From Escherichia coli (lineage in GTDB: Bacteria > Pseudomonadota > Gammaproteobacteria > Enterobacterales > Enterobacteriaceae): a DNA stretch of 22,598 bases. Positions 10,368-16,367 of this stretch are shown piece by piece. The stretch is taken from NCBI RefSeq assembly GCF_003334815.1, contig NZ_QOWO01000052.1; one strand, 5' to 3'. Both the position numbers and the translations under genes were made by a program. Position 1 is the stretch's first letter. Each line of letters begins with the position of its first letter. Under the pieces are notes generated by a model. The model ran no database searches. It was not told the origin of the DNA and was given only the letters and a program-made list of their open reading frames with translations.

Positions 10368-11337
10368 ATGCATTCGGAAAATATTGCGGCTTACGTCGGG
10401 CTGGATGTGCATAAAGAAACGTTGGCGGTTGCTATTGCTGTACCTGAACGGCTTGGCGAAGTTCGTTATTATGGTACGATTAACAGACAGAATCAAAAAT
10501 GATCATCGGGACGCAATTTCTCTCGCCAGGTTACTGCGGGCTGGAGAACTTACCCCTGTCTGGATCCCTGAGCTGACTCATGAAGCTATGCGGGATCTAA
10601 TCAGAGCCCGTGCAGCAGCTAAACGAGACAGCAGAGTTGCCCGACAGCGAATTCTGAGCATGCTATTGCGAACAGACAAACATTATGCTGGAAAGCACTG
10701 GACAGGAAAACACCGAACCTGGTTAGCTAATCAATCATTTAGTCAGCCATCTCAACAGATTGCTTTTCAACACTATTGTCAAAGTCTGGAGCAGATTGAA
10801 GATCGCATACTTCAACTCGACCAGGAAATATCTCGCCTGTTACCTGAGTGGTCTCTGTGCAATCTGGTCTGCCAGTTGCAGGCTCTTAAAGGTGTTGGTC
10901 AGCTAATCGCAATAACCCTGGTTGCTGAACTGGATGATTTTTCGCGATTTTCCAATCCCAAACAGCTCATGGCTTTTTTGGGACTGGTGCCAGGTGAATA
11001 TTCCAGTGGAAACAGTATTCGTCCCAGAGGAATAACAAAAGTTGGAAACAGCGAACTGAGTCGTCTGCTTTACGAAGCCGCCTGGTCTTATCGTACACCT
11101 GCAAAAGTTGGTGCATGGCTTATATATTACCGACCGGATTCTGTAACACAATATTCCAAAGATATTGCATGGAAAGCTCAACAACGATTGTGTTCTCGTT
11201 ACCGAAGTCTGACAGCAAAAGGGAAAAAATCACAAGTAGCCATTACGGCGGTGGCTCGTGAGTTGACTGGATTTATGTGGGATATTGCACTTGCTGCCCA
11301 TCATCATTCAGTCAGCAGAAGCAAAATTAAACCCTGA
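10368..11337 (+). pseudogene. IS110-family transposase remnant (frameshift plus internal deletion)
   Basis: ATG at 10368 (SD aggagg) gives MHSENIAAYVGLDVHKETLAVAIAVPERLGEVRYYGTINRQNQK then a stop; the rest (NDHRDAISLARLLRAGEL...KGVGQLIAITLVAELDDFSRFSNPKQLMAFLGLVPGEYSSGNSIR...) continues in another frame; most of the N-terminal catalytic domain between the VGLDV and NDxxDA motifs is missing. Confidence 0.7.
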
Positions 11338-11521
11338 ATTTGTTTCCCTTCTTCATTGAAGGCGATGTCCAGAGCGCTTTTCAGAAGACAGATGCTGTTT
11401 ACTGATGCCGAGGTCTGGATTCGGTGCCGGCCAGTCCAGTCTCTGTTGCTAAGGGCCTGATAGACCCAGGCATGACCCATCAGGAGTTCCATGGCGTAGG
11501 TCAGCCGGAACATATCATTTT

Positions 11522-11786
11522 GGGGTTCCAAGCCGCAACCGCCGAAATTTCCGGAATGCATAAATTTTGCGCTCGGCAACCTGTACGCAAGACCGCTGTT
11601 AACCGGACAGCAAAGAAATAGCTGTTTAGAGCGAAAAATCACTGCTCGTAACGTATCACATAGCTGGTACGGACAAATTCTTACTTATTGCACAATAAAC
11701 GTACACGTCAAAACTTGCCAAACATGCTGTAAAAATCAACAAATTCTCTGTATCGGAAATTTCGGCGTTTCCGGCGTACAACCCCT
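11522..11786. repeat. Right arm of the 265-bp inverted repeat
   Basis: Reverse complement of 8569-8833. Confidence 0.9.
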
Positions 11787-11803
11787 ATCTGCGTGAAGGT
11801 CGA

Positions 11804-12262
11804 ATGTCAGCCAGGTACGCAACAAGCGCTGTTGGCGTCGACTTAGGGACCCTTCTCACGGTGAAAAGCTGGTTGCCGGCCGTCTGCATCGCGATCTGGA
11901 ATCAGCATCAGGGAAAGTACTGTGGGCACGTAAAAAAGCCCGTGTTCGCGCTATCCATTCAAAACAGCAAAGACGCTCTGTACAAATTTAGCACGGCGTA
12001 TGCGGCAATCTTCCTTCGTAGGCAAAATGGCTAAGAGCGCTTTAGACACTGGCTGGTCAATGCTCAAAAAACAACTGAAATACAAGGTGATAGCACGGTC
12101 AGGGGGGGCGTCGTAAACGACAGTTATTCCACCTAGGGTTTTTCATGCTCTCCTGGAACTGCTCATGACCCCGACGTAAACACCGAAAAGAACATTCTCG
12201 CGACGGGGCACGCCGTTCTGTCTGTGGAGGGTGGGACAGTCAGGGGGCCCGTTGAAGCATAA
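11804..12262 (+). pseudogene. Degraded TnpB (IS200/IS605-family OrfB) remnant
   Basis: Fragments across three frames: AVGVDLGTLLTV (cf. VGIDLGLK), MAKSALDTGWSMLKKQLKYK (cf. DAGWG.F...LEYKA), and AHDPDVNTEKNILATGHAVLSVEGG (cf. TnpB C-terminal DADVNAA.NIL..G); interrupted by stops and frameshifts. Confidence 0.55.
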
Positions 12263-12765
12263 ATCCATGCTTTTCAGGACGAGGGGGCTCTTAAAAGAAG
12301 TATAAGAGAATAGTTATCACATTTCAGATAATTTTCATCTTAATTATTTAACCAGATACCATGTATCAAGTATTAGTAAGAATATAAACTAGTTGATTGC
12401 ACAAGTAACAAACAAAATATGCATTAATAATACATAAAATATTGCGTGGTAATATTTTATGTATTTTTTTATTTCTAAAATATGTAAAATATTTAACTAC
12501 ATTTACAATTCATTACGCAAGGTATTTTTGTGATAAAAAACCAAAAAACAACACAATCGTAGTTGATTGTATTGCGCATTTATACTAAATTAGTGTTATA
12601 TACTAGATTGGTGTGTTATTTGTGATTTTTGTCTTTTTTATGTGTTTGTGTGATTTTTAATAAAAGCATCTTCACAGAATTAATTTTATGAATATACTTT
12701 TCGTAAAAACACAGGCTGCCCGCTTAATTATATTTCTGGCTTTTCATTAACGACGGAGCGCTGAA

Positions 12766-13077
12766 ATGGATGGTGTGGTTTCTGATTATAAATTTTTTCT
12801 AGAGGAATCTCATTGTTCGCGAATTAGGCGAGGAGTGATAAAACCCGGGATATTGACTGATGAGCAATATGAATTGCTTATTGAGTTATCTCCTGTTTAT
12901 AGCTGTAAAATAATATATGCAATGAGAGATTATCTGGTGGCGGGGCATCCGAGAAAAACTGTATGTGAAAGGCACAATGTGAGTAATGGATATCTTAGTA
13001 CCAGTTTAAAGAAACTCTACTATACGAACAGTGTAGTAATTAGATTGATGCAAATTTACAAAAGTAATCATCAATAA
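12766..13077 (+). CDS. PapB/AfaA-family fimbrial operon transcriptional regulator
   Basis: 103-aa ORF; IIYAMRDYLVAGHPRKTVCERHNVSNGYLSTSLKKL matches the PapB-family core (DYLV.G..RK.VCE....NGYFST.L..L) from memory; first gene of the chaperone-usher cluster; ggag SD. Confidence 0.75.
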   Translation: MDGVVSDYKFFLEESHCSRIRRGVIKPGILTDEQYELLIELSPVYSCKIIYAMRDYLVAGHPRKTVCERHNVSNGYLSTSLKKLYYTNSVVIRLMQIYKSNHQ

Positions 13078-13147
13078 TAACACAATTAATTGATTGCAGA
13101 TTATAAAAATCAGCCAAAGAACATTCAGATCTGGCTTCGGGGGGGGT

Positions 13148-13891
13148 ATGCTTAAAAAAATAATTTTAATTATAACAGCGACATTTTCAGTTATATCTCA
13201 TGCAACACAAATAGAAACAACCACAAGAAGTTTTAGCAGTTTTCTTGGTACAACGAGGATTGTTTTCGACTCAGACACTGACAGTTATAACTTGCCTGTT
13301 GATAACAGGCTGGATTATCCCGTTCTGGTCGAAACAAAGATAATGGATGAGAATTCTGAAAAAACATCATCAAAATATATTGCCACACCACCTTTGTTTC
13401 GTCTGGATGGCGGGCAGAAAAACACAGTTTCGATAATTAAAGTTAGTGATGATTTTGCCAAAGATGTGGAAAGTATGAACTGGGTATGTGTCAAAAACAT
13501 CCCGCCGTCTGACGGTAGCGCCTGGACGGATAATGAGTTAAATAATAAAAACAGTGTACTAAACGTCAACATCATGGTTAATAACTGCATCAAGTTAATA
13601 ATGAGACCTGCCTCATTAGAAAACATAAAAGATGCAAGTTATGGTGATAAATTAAAATGGAGCATTGACAGCGGAAAACTTACCGTTGAAAACCCAACAC
13701 CGTATTACATTAATTTTAGTGAAATCAAACTTAACGGTAAAAATATTACACCCCCAGTGTTTGTTAAACCAAAGAGTTCTTATGCTTTTGAAGATCTAAA
13801 GCAAGCTAAACAGACTGGGAATATCACCTGGCAATTACTAAATGATTTTGGTGCTAAAACTCGTGAATTTAAATCTACCGTAAGCCAATGA
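13148..13891 (+). CDS. PapD-like periplasmic pilus chaperone
   Basis: Start placed at MLKKIILIITATFSVISHA (signal peptide; G-rich SD upstream) rather than the ORF-track Met at 13094; PPLFRLDGGQKNTVSII matches the chaperone PPLFRL motif. Confidence 0.75.
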   Translation: MLKKIILIITATFSVISHATQIETTTRSFSSFLGTTRIVFDSDTDSYNLPVDNRLDYPVLVETKIMDENSEKTSSKYIATPPLFRLDGGQKNTVSIIKVSDDFAKDVESMNWVCVKNIPPSDGSAWTDNELNNKNSVLNVNIMVNNCIKLIMRPASLENIKDASYGDKLKWSIDSGKLTVENPTPYYINFSEIKLNGKNITPPVFVKPKSSYAFEDLKQAKQTGNITWQLLNDFGAKTREFKSTVSQ

Positions 13892-13910: not shown

Positions 13911-16367
13911 ATGAAGACAAAAATAAACCCTATAGCCTATATGCTTATTGTGGCAGGCTTTTCTTATAACAATGATTTATTAGCAAAAAAAAGTGATTAT
14001 ATCTTTGATTCGGCATACGTTAATGGTAGTGACGTAACTCGCTTTAATGATGGCCAGCAATTACCTGGTAAATATCTGGTTACAGTCTCTGTTAATGAGC
14101 AGAGAAAAAAAGTTGGCAGTTACAAAGTTAACTTTGAGTACAGAGGAGAAACTCTCACCCCTGTACTCAACAAAGAAAAGCTGGCACTTTTTGGCATCAA
14201 TCCTGACAAGCTAAAGTTAACTTTATCCGGGGATGGAAATGAAATAGACTTTGACAGAAGTGATGTAAAGTTCAATTTTTCCTTTTATGGGATGAATTTG
14301 ACCCTTTATGTTCCTTCAAAGGCATTAGTGAATAAAACAAGTGAACTTGCTCATGAGTCTCAATGGGATGATGGAATTAATGCCTTCATACTCAACTATG
14401 ATGCTAAAGCCTGGCACAGGGATGTGAATTATGATTCACCTGATAATGAATCATATTATTTATCGTTAAATCCTGGTATGAATGTTGGCAGCTGGAGAGT
14501 ACGACACTCGGGCATATGGCGGAAAGGTTACGATAGAGAAAGTTCGTATCAGAAATCTTACACATATGCTGAAAGGGATATCCGGGCTTTAAAAAGCAAA
14601 ATACTTATTGGAGAAAGCAGTACTGGCTCAGATATATTCGGAAGCGTTCCCTTTAATGGCGTTAAACTGGCATCATCAGATGATATGGTTCCGTACTATG
14701 ACAGAGCGTTTGTGCCAGCGATCAGAGGCATCGCCAATAGCGTAGCGCAAGTGGAAGTGCGTCAGAACGGCTATCTGATTTACAGTACGGAAGTTCCCGC
14801 TGGCACTTTTGAACTGACGGATGTGCCAGCAGCACAGGGAGAAACGCTGGATGTAACAGTAAGAGAGGACAACGGAGCAGAGCAGCACTTCAGCGTCCCC
14901 TACAATACTCCTGCGATCTCTTTGAGAGAGGGCAGACTGAAGTACGAATTAACAGCCGGGACATACAGGCCATACTCTCGTTCGGCTAAAGATGACAGTT
15001 TTGGCCAGGCAACATTAATTTACGGCTTTAATGATACTCTTACTGGTTATACCGGATTACAGATCAGTGAGAAATATCAATCAGGTGCTGCAGGCCTTGG
15101 CTTTAATTTATATGACTACGGCGCGGCTTCAGTAGATGGCATTTATTCAAAAAATCGATATTCAGAAAACAAGACCGGAAGTGCATTCAGAGTAAGATAT
15201 AACAAGTTAATAGATACAACGAATACCTCTTTTGCTCTGGCAAGTTATCAATATGCGTCCAGGAGTTATAGTACGTTTGATGATGCTATGGAACCAGGCC
15301 AGAGTTATTCTTTCGGCAAGAGAAAAAATGACTTTAGCATCAGTATAAGACAGGAATTGTCTGATTATGGGAATCTTAACCTGTCCTATAGCAAGACTAC
15401 TTTTTGGGATAAGAAAAATGAATCTTATGCAAACCTGAACTATGACTCTTCATTATTTGGCTATGTTAGTTTTTCTCTTGGATGGAGCCGGGTACTGGAA
15501 TCTTACAGAAATACAAGAGCAAGAGAGGATATATATTCTGCCACATTCTCAATACCTTTGAGCAGGTTTACAGGCAGGAAATTAAATGCAAATATGCGGT
15601 ATCAGATAATTAATGAACGGGATAACAGTGTCAGCAATTCACTGAGTTTAAACGGAAATGCTTACGAAAACAGATTATCATGGAACGTAAGCCAGGGCAC
15701 TAACAGCAGGAATCATAACAATAACAGGACATCAGCCAATGCTTCGTTTAAACATTCGTTTGGTACCGTAAATGGAATGTATAACTACAGTCCTGTTTCT
15801 ACCCAGTTCGGCGGAGGGATGAATGGAAGTGTGATATTGCATGAGCATGGATTGACTTTTGGACAACCTGTTTATGACTCAGCTGCTCTGGTAGATACTA
15901 ACGGTGAATCAGGTATTAAAATCACCAACAAATCCGGTGTACAGACAGATAATAATGGATACGCTGTAGTAACGCCTCTGAATACTTACAGGATGAATGA
16001 CATTAGTATAAAACAAGCCAGGTTACAGAGTAAGTCTGACTTTAAACAGACAGTAACTTCTGTAGTACCAACAAGCAAAGCTCTTGTTTATGCAGGTTTC
16101 AAATCTGTAACAGGTGAAAAAGGGTTATTTAAACTTAAGGACAAAAATGACAAACCACTCCCCTTTGGAGCGATGGTATCTGTAATTGATCAGGATAACG
16201 CAGGCGTAATTGGTGATGAAGGTCAGGTATATTTAAGTGGTTTAAAGGAAAGTGGTGTTATTAAGGTGCGCTGGGGTAGTGGTATTAATCAGACATGCAG
16301 TATTCCATATGCACTTGGAAATAAAAATTCGGCGGGACTATATGTCTCCACCTTTAGATGCCAGTAG
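13911..16367 (+). CDS. Outer-membrane fimbrial usher
   Basis: 818-aa ORF; FNDGQQLPGKYLVTV and LASSDDMVPYYDRAFVPAIRGIANSVAQVEVRQNGYLIY match FimD-type usher segments ([51 protein letters not shown]) from memory. Confidence 0.85.
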   Translation: MKTKINPIAYMLIVAGFSYNNDLLAKKSDYIFDSAYVNGSDVTRFNDGQQLPGKYLVTVSVNEQRKKVGSYKVNFEYRGETLTPVLNKEKLALFGINPDKLKLTLSGDGNEIDFDRSDVKFNFSFYGMNLTLYVPSKALVNKTSELAHESQWDDGINAFILNYDAKAWHRDVNYDSPDNESYYLSLNPGMNVGSWRVRHSGIWRKGYDRESSYQKSYTYAERDIRALKSKILIGESSTGSDIFGSVPFNGVKLASSDDMVPYYDRAFVPAIRGIANSVAQVEVRQNGYLIYSTEVPAGTFELTDVPAAQGETLDVTVREDNGAEQHFSVPYNTPAISLREGRLKYELTAGTYRPYSRSAKDDSFGQATLIYGFNDTLTGYTGLQISEKYQSGAAGLGFNLYDYGAASVDGIYSKNRYSENKTGSAFRVRYNKLIDTTNTSFALASYQYASRSYSTFDDAMEPGQSYSFGKRKNDFSISIRQELSDYGNLNLSYSKTTFWDKKNESYANLNYDSSLFGYVSFSLGWSRVLESYRNTRAREDIYSATFSIPLSRFTGRKLNANMRYQIINERDNSVSNSLSLNGNAYENRLSWNVSQGTNSRNHNNNRTSANASFKHSFGTVNGMYNYSPVSTQFGGGMNGSVILHEHGLTFGQPVYDSAALVDTNGESGIKITNKSGVQTDNNGYAVVTPLNTYRMNDISIKQARLQSKSDFKQTVTSVVPTSKALVYAGFKSVTGEKGLFKLKDKNDKPLPFGAMVSVIDQDNAGVIGDEGQVYLSGLKESGVIKVRWGSGINQTCSIPYALGNKNSAGLYVSTFRCQ

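What the first reader, a model, noticed from the sequence alone, without database searches (positions are those of the whole stretch)
12300..12765. ~460-bp extremely AT-rich leader upstream of the PapB-like regulator, with no GATC pair and no PapI-like gene
The region before the fimbrial regulator is near-continuous A/T with multiple A- and T-tracts, typical of curved, H-NS-silenced promoter DNA. I found no GATC in it on reading and no PapI-like ORF, so regulation is unlikely to be a Pap-type Dam/Lrp phase switch and more likely thermo/osmo-regulated H-NS silencing relieved by the PapB-like protein.
Basis: partly seen in the sequence, partly recalled or inferred. Interest (0 to 1): 0.3.

Follow-up and report, generated by a model that had tools for sequence, protein, structure and literature searches.

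The report
AT-rich fimbrial promoter region, no Pap switch
This is the AT-rich control region in front of an uncharacterised plasmid-borne fimbrial operon of E. coli and Salmonella. It lacks every part of the classical Pap methylation switch, which makes it an ordinary example of a simpler, already known type of fimbrial regulation.

Summary
Window 12291-12765 (475 bp, 25% GC) is the most AT-rich stretch of the window. It has no GATC between 11897 and 13127. No PapI/FaeA homologue exists in any frame of the window or of about 300 kb of related loci.

The stretch lies between the right end of an IS200/IS605 remnant and a PapB-family gene (PF03333). That gene heads an FGL-type chaperone-usher operon followed by a Pic-like protease gene, on an IncX1-type plasmid.

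"Leader" is a misnomer. A sigma-70 promoter (TTCACA-16-TATACT, 12671-12698) sits in a 115-bp block that is identical in the E. coli and Salmonella copies compared pairwise and nearly invariant across the leader versions aligned. Only about 60 nt are therefore likely to be transcribed. Upstream, 12436-12650 diverges about 20% between alleles but keeps its AT content and its 9- and 10-bp phasing of A/T tracts.

A Pap-type Dam/Lrp/PapI switch is excluded. H-NS-type silencing countered by the PapB-like protein is plausible by analogy with TosR and PapB, but it is untested, and consensus motif scans were at chance level. PapB-family operons without PapI are already known (fan, pix, tos).

One side observation: a G8-G11 tract at the chaperone ribosome-binding site varies among near-identical relatives.

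The parts
12000..12290 (+). Remnant of an IS200/IS605-family element: a TnpB C-terminal fragment and the GC-rich right end. It forms the left boundary of the AT-rich region.
   Evidence: pISHS7_3 carries an intact TnpB at this place (NF040570, 389 bits). The window ORF 12000-12116 gives a weak TnpB hit. Homology to the pig-plasmid lineage starts only at 12292.
12291..12435 (.). Distal part of the AT-rich upstream region.
   Evidence: It differs by 0.7% from the E. coli copy pISHS7_3, by about 11% from the Salmonella copies, and is only weakly alignable with the pig lineage.
12436..12650 (.). Highly divergent middle part of the upstream region, with A/T tracts phased at 10 bp.
   Evidence: It differs by 18-20% from other alleles, while the adjacent regulator and chaperone genes differ by 0.5-2.6%. 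L020 is a recombinant between the two allele types. AA/TT power at period 10 (and 9) exceeds all shuffles in the window and is retained in most alleles.
12619..12658 (+). T-rich array with a 9-bp period (TTTGTGATT x 4.3), just upstream of the -35. Candidate binding site for oligomers of the PapB-like protein.
   Evidence: Tandem Repeats Finder. Period-9 AA/TT power in 12600-12765 exceeded all shuffles (0 of 200-300) in 8 of 10 alleles and 1 of 200 in one more; it was absent only in the distant relative L012. The link to PapB binding rests on my recollection of Xia et al. 1998, which I could not read here.
12651..12765 (+). Invariant proximal block holding the core promoter, a dyad symmetry and the 5' UTR.
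   Evidence: 0-1 differences in 115 bp against the E. coli and Salmonella copies compared pairwise, and only isolated single-base changes among the aligned versions.
12671..12698 (+). Predicted sigma-70 promoter: -35 TTCACA (12671-12676), 16-bp spacer, -10 TATACT (12693-12698).
   Evidence: It is the only + strand candidate in 12000-13200, matching 10 of 12 consensus positions. Both hexamers and the spacing are kept in the distant relative L012, although 5 spacer bases changed there.
12654..12710 (.). Imperfect dyad symmetry centred on 12682, spanning the -35, the spacer and the -10. Candidate operator.
   Evidence: Inverted repeat I1. 22 of 28 arm positions are complementary; 200 shuffles gave a mean of 16.8 and a maximum of 21.
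12766..13077 (+). PapB-family regulator gene (103 aa), with a GGAG ribosome-binding site at 12755-12758.
   Evidence: Pfam PF03333, E 3e-29. 44% identical to PapB over 79 residues, including the GH-RK-VCE stretch.
13140..13147 (+). G8 tract one base before the chaperone start codon, serving as its ribosome-binding site. Its length varies among relatives.
   Evidence: Among 26 related loci: G8 x13, G9 x4, G10 x7, G11 x2. The lengths do not follow the flanking haplotypes.
13148..13891 (+). Periplasmic chaperone of the FGL type.
   Evidence: Caf1M E 9e-51, DraB E 1e-46, SafB-type chaperone (PDB 2co6) E 1e-38. NCBIfam chaperone models also match.
13911..16367 (+). Outer-membrane usher.
   Evidence: NCBIfam usher models, E 6.5e-166.
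16437..16976 (+). Fimbrial subunit (179 aa), hypervariable among relatives.
   Evidence: Weak match to AfaE-III, E 0.0097. Subunits are 63-89% identical at the protein level between distinct alleles, while usher DNA is 97-100% identical.

Best explanation
Window 12291-12765 is the upstream control region of an uncharacterised plasmid-borne FGL-type chaperone-usher operon, in the order PapB-like regulator, chaperone, usher, subunit.

Proposed mechanism:
- Transcription most likely starts about 60 nt before the regulator's ATG, from a conserved sigma-70 promoter (TTCACA-16-TATACT, 12671-12698).
- The roughly 380 bp of 25%-GC DNA upstream, with helically phased A/T tracts, most likely acts as a landing platform for nucleoid proteins (H-NS, possibly Lrp) that keep the operon silent.
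- The PapB-like protein, made from the first cistron, binds as an oligomer to the 9-bp-periodic T-rich array and to the dyad over the promoter. It would counteract silencing at low levels and possibly repress itself at high levels, as PapB, FocB and TosR do.
- There is no Dam/Lrp/PapI epigenetic switch.

What is shown and what is inferred:
- Shown: composition, absence of GATC and PapI, family of the regulator, conservation pattern, periodicities.
- Inferred: the promoter assignment (supported by conservation), and the roles of H-NS and the PapB-like protein (by analogy only).
For: - It is the lowest-GC stretch of the window, and GC stays at 24-28% in every related leader examined despite up to 20% sequence divergence.
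- No GATC and no PapI homologue in the window or in about 300 kb of related loci, while control loci show both.
- The regulator is a PapB-family protein (PF03333, E 3e-29).
- The promoter lies in a 115-bp block with 0-1 differences against the E. coli and Salmonella copies compared. Its hexamers and spacing survive in a relative whose regulator gene differs by 27% in DNA.
- AA/TT periodicity at 10 bp (12436-12660) and 9 bp (12600-12765) exceeds the shuffles and is retained across alleles. TRF finds the period-9 array.
- The dyad over the promoter exceeds all 200 shuffles.
- Literature: PapB and FocB bind AT-rich DNA as oligomers; PapB competes with H-NS and Lrp silencing; TosR works with H-NS and Lrp (PMC5956150). 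The fan and pix operons have PapB-type regulators without PapI, and fan is not Dam-dependent (PMC12388093).
Against: - No binding or expression data exist for this operon.
- The H-NS high-affinity motif (0 hits against 1.5 expected) and the Lrp SELEX, CRP, IHF and Fis consensus sequences are at or below chance.
- The distal and middle parts evolve faster than neighbouring genes and could be largely dispensable.
- In most pig-plasmid copies the region is cut at about 12464.
- The upstream flank is an insertion-sequence end in every lineage. An ancestral PapI gene lost to insertions therefore cannot be ruled out.
- The periodicity tests compare related sequences, and several periods were tried.
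Confidence: 0.55

Rival explanations
1. Only the proximal 115 bp is functional. The distal and middle AT-rich DNA is a weakly constrained spacer, possibly what remains after insertion sequences removed an ancestral divergent PapI-like gene and its GATC sites.
For: 12291-12650 diverges 11-20% between lineages whose coding genes differ by 0.5-2.6%. The left edge is an IS200/IS605 end here and in Salmonella, and IS3 lies nearby in the pig lineage. Most pig-plasmid copies are truncated at about 12464. Consensus motif scans are at chance.
Against: AT content and the 9/10-bp phasing are retained despite the divergence. The full 475 bp is homologous in three lineages. Short islands within the variable part are conserved, such as TTTACAATT-ATTAC, TTGTGAT and GTTGATT. 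The one pig-lineage copy whose annotation I inspected (pCV839) is itself decayed, with IS1 lying just beyond the chaperone gene where the usher should be.
Confidence: 0.2
2. Fan (K99)-type control. Lrp and/or CRP activate a non-phase-variable promoter, and the PapB-like protein acts after initiation as an antiterminator rather than against H-NS.
For: It has the same layout as fan: a PapB-type gene first, no PapI, no Dam dependence (PMC12388093). The loose Pap-type Lrp motif GNNNTTT occurs 15 times against 7.4 +/- 2.7 in shuffles.
Against: No terminator-like site is predicted on the + strand anywhere in the 12000-13200 scan, which covers the promoter, the regulator gene and the intergenic stretch up to the chaperone start. 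There is one regulator gene, not two. No CRP site is found within two mismatches, and the Lrp SELEX consensus is at chance.
Confidence: 0.12
3. Variable expression comes from slippage at homopolymer tracts instead of methylation. The main candidate is the G8-G11 tract at the chaperone ribosome-binding site, with T/A tracts in the upstream region as a lesser one. This could coexist with the best explanation.
For: The G tract is 8, 9, 10 or 11 long in 13, 4, 7 and 2 related loci, and its length is unlinked to flanking haplotypes: G8-G11 occur within one PapB protein group, and L026 (G10) has an usher identical to L027 and L028 (G8). Two contigs end inside the tract. T- and A-run lengths differ by 1 bp between leader alleles. 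The pig lineage shows A7/A8 in chaperone codons 3-5.
Against: Homopolymer lengths are the commonest assembly and sequencing error. No within-strain data are available. An effect of tract length on translation is only inferred. The pig lineage has no G tract at all.
Confidence: 0.15
4. The region encodes a small RNA or leader peptide that controls the operon. The candidates are a minus-strand hairpin with a U-run at 12548-12575 and the 20-codon ORF at 12688-12750.
For: The minus-strand hairpin folds better than shuffles (z = -2.9) and is followed by a U-run. A 20-codon ORF lies inside the invariant block.
Against: The hairpin is specific to the window's allele: consensus energy is -0.6 kcal/mol and no pair is compensated across 10 alleles. 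There is no Rfam match at E <= 1. The small ORF has no ribosome-binding site, overlaps the -10, and is broken by a 5-nt insertion in L012. The 5' UTR fold is ordinary.
Confidence: 0.03

Closest known systems
pap, sfa, foc, daa/afa, fae, pef and clp regulatory regions (PapB + PapI + Dam/Lrp switch)
   Same: A PapB-family gene is the first gene of a chaperone-usher operon. It is preceded by a roughly 400-500-bp AT-rich region (control regions are 29-33% GC). The structural genes resemble the Afa/Dr group: a DraB-like chaperone and a weak AfaE-like subunit.
   Different: No divergent PapI/FaeA/AfaF gene and no GATC at all, whereas 4 of 6 control regions have a pair 102-103 bp apart. No AfaD-like gene. 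Methylation-dependent phase variation is therefore impossible.
K99 fan operon (FanA/FanB) and pix operon (PixB)
   Same: PapB-family regulators at the 5' end with no PapI partner. fan is reported as neither phase-variable nor Dam-dependent (PMC12388093).
   Different: A single regulator gene instead of two. No predicted terminators for an antitermination mechanism. A different class of fimbria (FGL type). The regulator is only about 40-50% identical to any named family member.
tos operon promoter with TosR, H-NS and Lrp (uropathogenic E. coli)
   Same: A PapB-family autoregulator heads the operon, lacks PapI, and is proposed to oppose H-NS and Lrp on AT-rich DNA, activating at low and repressing at high levels (PMC5956150).
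   Different: tos encodes an RTX adhesin, not fimbriae. No experimental data exist for the locus studied here.

Membership tests
Pap-type Dam/Lrp/PapI epigenetic phase switch | PapB-family regulator as the first gene of the operon | tested here: met
   PF03333, E 3e-29; 44% identity to PapB.
Pap-type Dam/Lrp/PapI epigenetic phase switch | Divergently transcribed PapI/FaeA-family gene upstream | tested here: not met
   A custom PapI HMM scored at best 6.8 bits (E 0.8) in the window and no better in about 300 kb of related loci. Controls scored 98-124 bits.
Pap-type Dam/Lrp/PapI epigenetic phase switch | Two GATC sites about 102 bp apart in the intergenic region | tested here: not met
   No GATC from 11897 to 13127 and none in any related leader. 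Controls: pairs at 102-103 bp in 4 of 6.
Pap-type Dam/Lrp/PapI epigenetic phase switch | Two triplets of Lrp-binding sites | tested here: inconclusive
   The Lrp SELEX consensus is at chance (5 hits against 4.8). The loose GNNNTTT motif occurs 15 times against 7.4.
PapB/FocB family transcription regulators | PapB domain with the DNA-binding Arg and Cys of the GH-RK-VCE stretch | tested here: met
   Pfam hit. The alignment shows GHPRKTVCE against GHSRKEVCE. The importance of these two residues is from my memory of Xia and Uhlin 1999.
H-NS-silenced AT-rich promoter region | Extended stretch far more AT-rich than the host genome | tested here: met
   25% GC over 475 bp, the lowest in the window.
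H-NS-silenced AT-rich promoter region | Helically phased A/T tracts (intrinsic curvature) | tested here: met
   AA/TT power at period 10 in 12436-12660 exceeds every shuffle (0 of 300, 0 of 200) and is retained in most alleles. No curvature model was run.
H-NS-silenced AT-rich promoter region | High-affinity nucleation motif (TCGATAAATT-like) | tested here: not met
   0 hits within 2 mismatches against 1.5 expected. The degenerate form gave 4 against 5.8.
H-NS-silenced AT-rich promoter region | H-NS occupancy and derepression in an hns mutant | not testable with these tools
   Needs ChIP or EMSA and reporter assays.
Fan (K99)-type PapB-homologue antitermination | Intrinsic terminators between the promoter and the structural genes | tested here: not met
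   No + strand terminator-like site in 12000-13200.
FGL chaperone-usher (Afa/Dr, Saf, Caf1) operons | FGL-type chaperone plus usher plus Afa/Dr-like subunit | tested here: met
   Caf1M 9e-51, DraB 1e-46. Usher models 6.5e-166. The subunit match is only weak (AfaE-III, E 0.0097).
Simple-sequence contingency locus (slipped-strand variation) | Homopolymer of 8 or more bases whose length varies among near-identical relatives, at a site that can affect expression | tested here: inconclusive
   G8-G11 at the chaperone ribosome-binding site in 26 loci, unlinked to haplotype. Assembly error and the functional effect could not be assessed.

The most novel reading that the evidence does not exclude
This operon has replaced the Pap methylation switch with a different way of generating variability. 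It would combine interchangeable, highly divergent upstream-region alleles around an invariant core promoter with a slippage-prone G8-G11 tract at the chaperone ribosome-binding site that tunes or switches assembly. This sits alongside a hypervariable subunit gene. If real, it would be a translational simple-repeat switch in an E. coli/Salmonella chaperone-usher operon, which I believe is not an established mechanism in these species.
Probability: 0.12. Interest if true: 0.5.

Novelty: new member of a known kind. Interest (0 to 1): 0.25.

Why it matters
The operon is carried with a Pic-like mucinase gene on IncX1 and other plasmids in hundreds of E. coli and Salmonella assemblies, and its subunit is still annotated as hypothetical. 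Knowing that it lacks the Pap switch narrows how its expression should be studied: hns, lrp and the PapB-like gene rather than dam. The regulatory finding itself adds a member to a known class (fan, pix, tos) and overturns nothing. The variable G tract and the mosaic upstream alleles are the only parts that might repay bench work.

Tried and rejected
- Small RNA or terminator on the minus strand (12548-12575). It folds well in the window but is not conserved or compensated in 10 alleles. Rejected.
- Near-perfect AT-only inverted repeat at 12426-12468. It is degraded in the commoner allele, so it is probably not functional.
- RNA thermometer or structured 5' UTR. z = -0.8. Rejected.
- Rfam scan of 11300-13300 at E <= 1. 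Only a chance snoRNA hit.
- Leader peptide (20-codon ORF at 12688-12750). No ribosome-binding site, overlaps the -10, and is broken in L012. Rejected.
- Consensus scans for Lrp, CRP, IHF, Fis and H-NS. All at chance.
- Exact-pattern scans of genome contigs and metagenome contigs with the invariant block found nothing. Relatives were reached instead through the protein cluster.
- Link between upstream-region allele and subunit allele. Only a weak correlation (Spearman 0.30) and no strict linkage.
- Papers by Xia et al. and by Engstrom and Mobley 2016 could not be opened. The 9-bp PapB site rule therefore rests on my memory.

Full report
**Context.** The window is an IncX1-type plasmid segment. 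It holds replication genes, ParA/ParG, a resolvase and an Abi-like gene. It is 97.8% identical over 83% of its length to E. coli plasmid pISHS7_3. Reading rightwards from there:
- an IS110 transposase gene (10384-11337);
- the decayed 3' part and right end of an IS200/IS605 element, whose TnpB is intact in pISHS7_3;
- the AT-rich stretch under study;
- a PapB-family gene (12766-13077; PF03333, E 3e-29);
- an FGL-type chaperone (13148-13891; Caf1M 9e-51, DraB 1e-46);
- an usher (13911-16367);
- a 179-aa subunit with a weak AfaE-III match;
- a Pic-like autotransporter protease (17258-21370; 1881 bits to the Pic passenger).

The same cassette occurs on other plasmid backbones in Salmonella Newport and Oranienburg, and in a decayed form on pig E. 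coli plasmids. No paper on this operon was found, and sources call the subunit hypothetical.

**The observation.** It is correct.
- 12300-12765 is 25.5% GC. The lowest-GC 466-bp stretch of the whole window starts at 12288.
- The natural limits are 12291-12765. Homology with the pig-plasmid lineage starts at 12292, exactly where the GC-rich insertion-sequence end stops.
- There is no GATC from 11897 to 13127. Only 0.5-1.0 is expected by composition, so the absence is not statistically striking. It does, however, remove an indispensable part of a Pap switch.
- As a positive control I fetched eight real PapI-family loci. In six, a PapB-like gene lies divergently upstream, and 4 of those 6 intergenic regions show GATC pairs 102-103 bp apart.
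- An HMM built from those PapI proteins found nothing in six frames of the window (best E 0.8) or of about 300 kb of related loci. It scored 98-124 bits on the control loci it was built from.

**Anatomy.** Nineteen distinct versions of the region were aligned. Three zones emerge.
- *Proximal, 12651-12765.* The E. coli and Salmonella copies compared pairwise differ at 0-1 positions. This zone holds the only + strand promoter candidate, TTCACA-16-TATACT at 12671-12698. Both hexamers and the spacing survive in a distant relative (L012; regulator 79% identical in protein, and 27% different in DNA), although five spacer bases changed there. An imperfect dyad centred on 12682 covers the promoter and is stronger than in any of 200 shuffles. 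So only about 60 nt is likely to be a transcribed leader. Its fold is ordinary.
- *Middle, 12436-12650.* The window's allele differs by about 20% from all others, although the flanking regulator and chaperone genes differ by 0.5-2.6%. One locus (L020) is a recombinant between the two allele types. GC stays at 24-28%.
- *Distal, 12291-12435.* It differs by 0.7% from the E. coli copy pISHS7_3 and by about 11% from the Salmonella copies.

AA/TT dinucleotides are phased at 10 bp in the middle zone. They are phased at 9 bp next to the promoter, where Tandem Repeats Finder also reports TTTGTGATT x 4.3 at 12619-12658. Both signals persist in most alleles.

**Mechanism.** A Pap-type switch is excluded. 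The best-supported reading has two parts. First, a sigma-70 promoter is embedded in AT-rich, phased DNA that nucleoid proteins can coat. Second, the first cistron encodes a PapB-family protein that binds AT-rich repeats as an oligomer and opposes silencing.

This is what has been described for PapB, FocB and TosR (PMC5956150). The layout, a PapB-type gene without PapI, is known from fan and pix (PMC12388093). That PapB recognises 9-bp repeats with T/A triplets is my recollection of Xia et al. 1998, which I could not retrieve.

The support is circumstantial. The Lrp, CRP, IHF, Fis and H-NS consensus motifs are at chance, and nothing in the sequence addresses temperature or osmolarity. I put the exclusion of a Pap switch at about 0.9 and H-NS-type silencing at about 0.6. 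Taken separately, the PapB-like counter-silencing step stands at about 0.5. The overall figure of 0.55 is a summary weighting of these parts, not their product.

**Rivals.**
- Most of the AT-rich DNA may be poorly constrained spacer, left between an insertion sequence and a compact promoter (0.2).
- Fan-type Lrp/CRP control with antitermination lacks predicted terminators (0.12).
- A small-RNA or leader-peptide reading was tested and rejected.

**Outside the given coordinates.** A G tract immediately before the chaperone start codon (13140-13147) is G8 here. Among 26 related loci it is G8, G9, G10 or G11 in 13, 4, 7 and 2 loci. Its length varies within groups that share identical regulator proteins or identical usher DNA, and two contigs break inside it. 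This is the pattern expected of a slippage-prone tract at a ribosome-binding site, but assembly error cannot be excluded.

The subunit gene is also hypervariable: 63-89% protein identity between distinct alleles, against 97-100% usher DNA identity.

**Verdict.** This is a new member of a known kind and of modest interest.

Noticed in passing
window 13140-13147: A G8 tract one base before the chaperone ATG. In 26 related loci it is G8 (13), G9 (4), G10 (7) or G11 (2), unlinked to flanking haplotypes, and two contigs end inside it. It could be a slippage-prone ribosome-binding site or an assembly artefact.
   Followed up: partly
window 16437-16976: The fimbrial subunit gene is hypervariable. Protein identity between distinct alleles is 63-89% and lengths are 175-179 aa, among loci whose usher DNA is 97-100% identical. 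This is typical antigenic diversification.
   Followed up: partly
window 12436-12650: The window carries a rarer upstream-region allele, about 80% identical to the common one, shared with L021 and L023. L020 is a recombinant of the two. The flanks on both sides are identical.
   Followed up: yes
window 17258-21370: A 1370-aa serine protease autotransporter very close to Pic (1881 bits to PDB 9z7b). It follows the fimbrial operon in every full-length relative, including Salmonella plasmids.
   Followed up: partly
window 10384-12290: An IS110-family transposase gene (10384-11337), followed by a decayed IS200/IS605 TnpB and right end that stops at about 12290. The element is intact in pISHS7_3. 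If it were active, its guide RNA would read into the first bases of the AT-rich region.
   Followed up: partly
window 846-1068 and 1357-1393: Two tight clusters of GATC sites, seven in 223 bp and four in 37 bp, upstream of the replication genes. They are probably origin-associated Dam sites of the IncX backbone.
   Followed up: no
L013-L015 versus L002, L016, L017 (pig-plasmid lineage), chaperone codons 3-5: An A7/A8 length difference in otherwise identical sequences. It shifts the chaperone frame relative to its ATG, and gene callers then pick an upstream start.
   Followed up: no
window 12390-12399, 12560-12569, 13088-13096: The motif (T)AGTTGATTG occurs twice in the upstream region, and a similar AATTGATTGCA lies after the regulator gene. 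Only the 12562-12568 copy (GTTGATT) is kept in nearly all alleles; it is changed only in the distant relative L012.
   Followed up: partly
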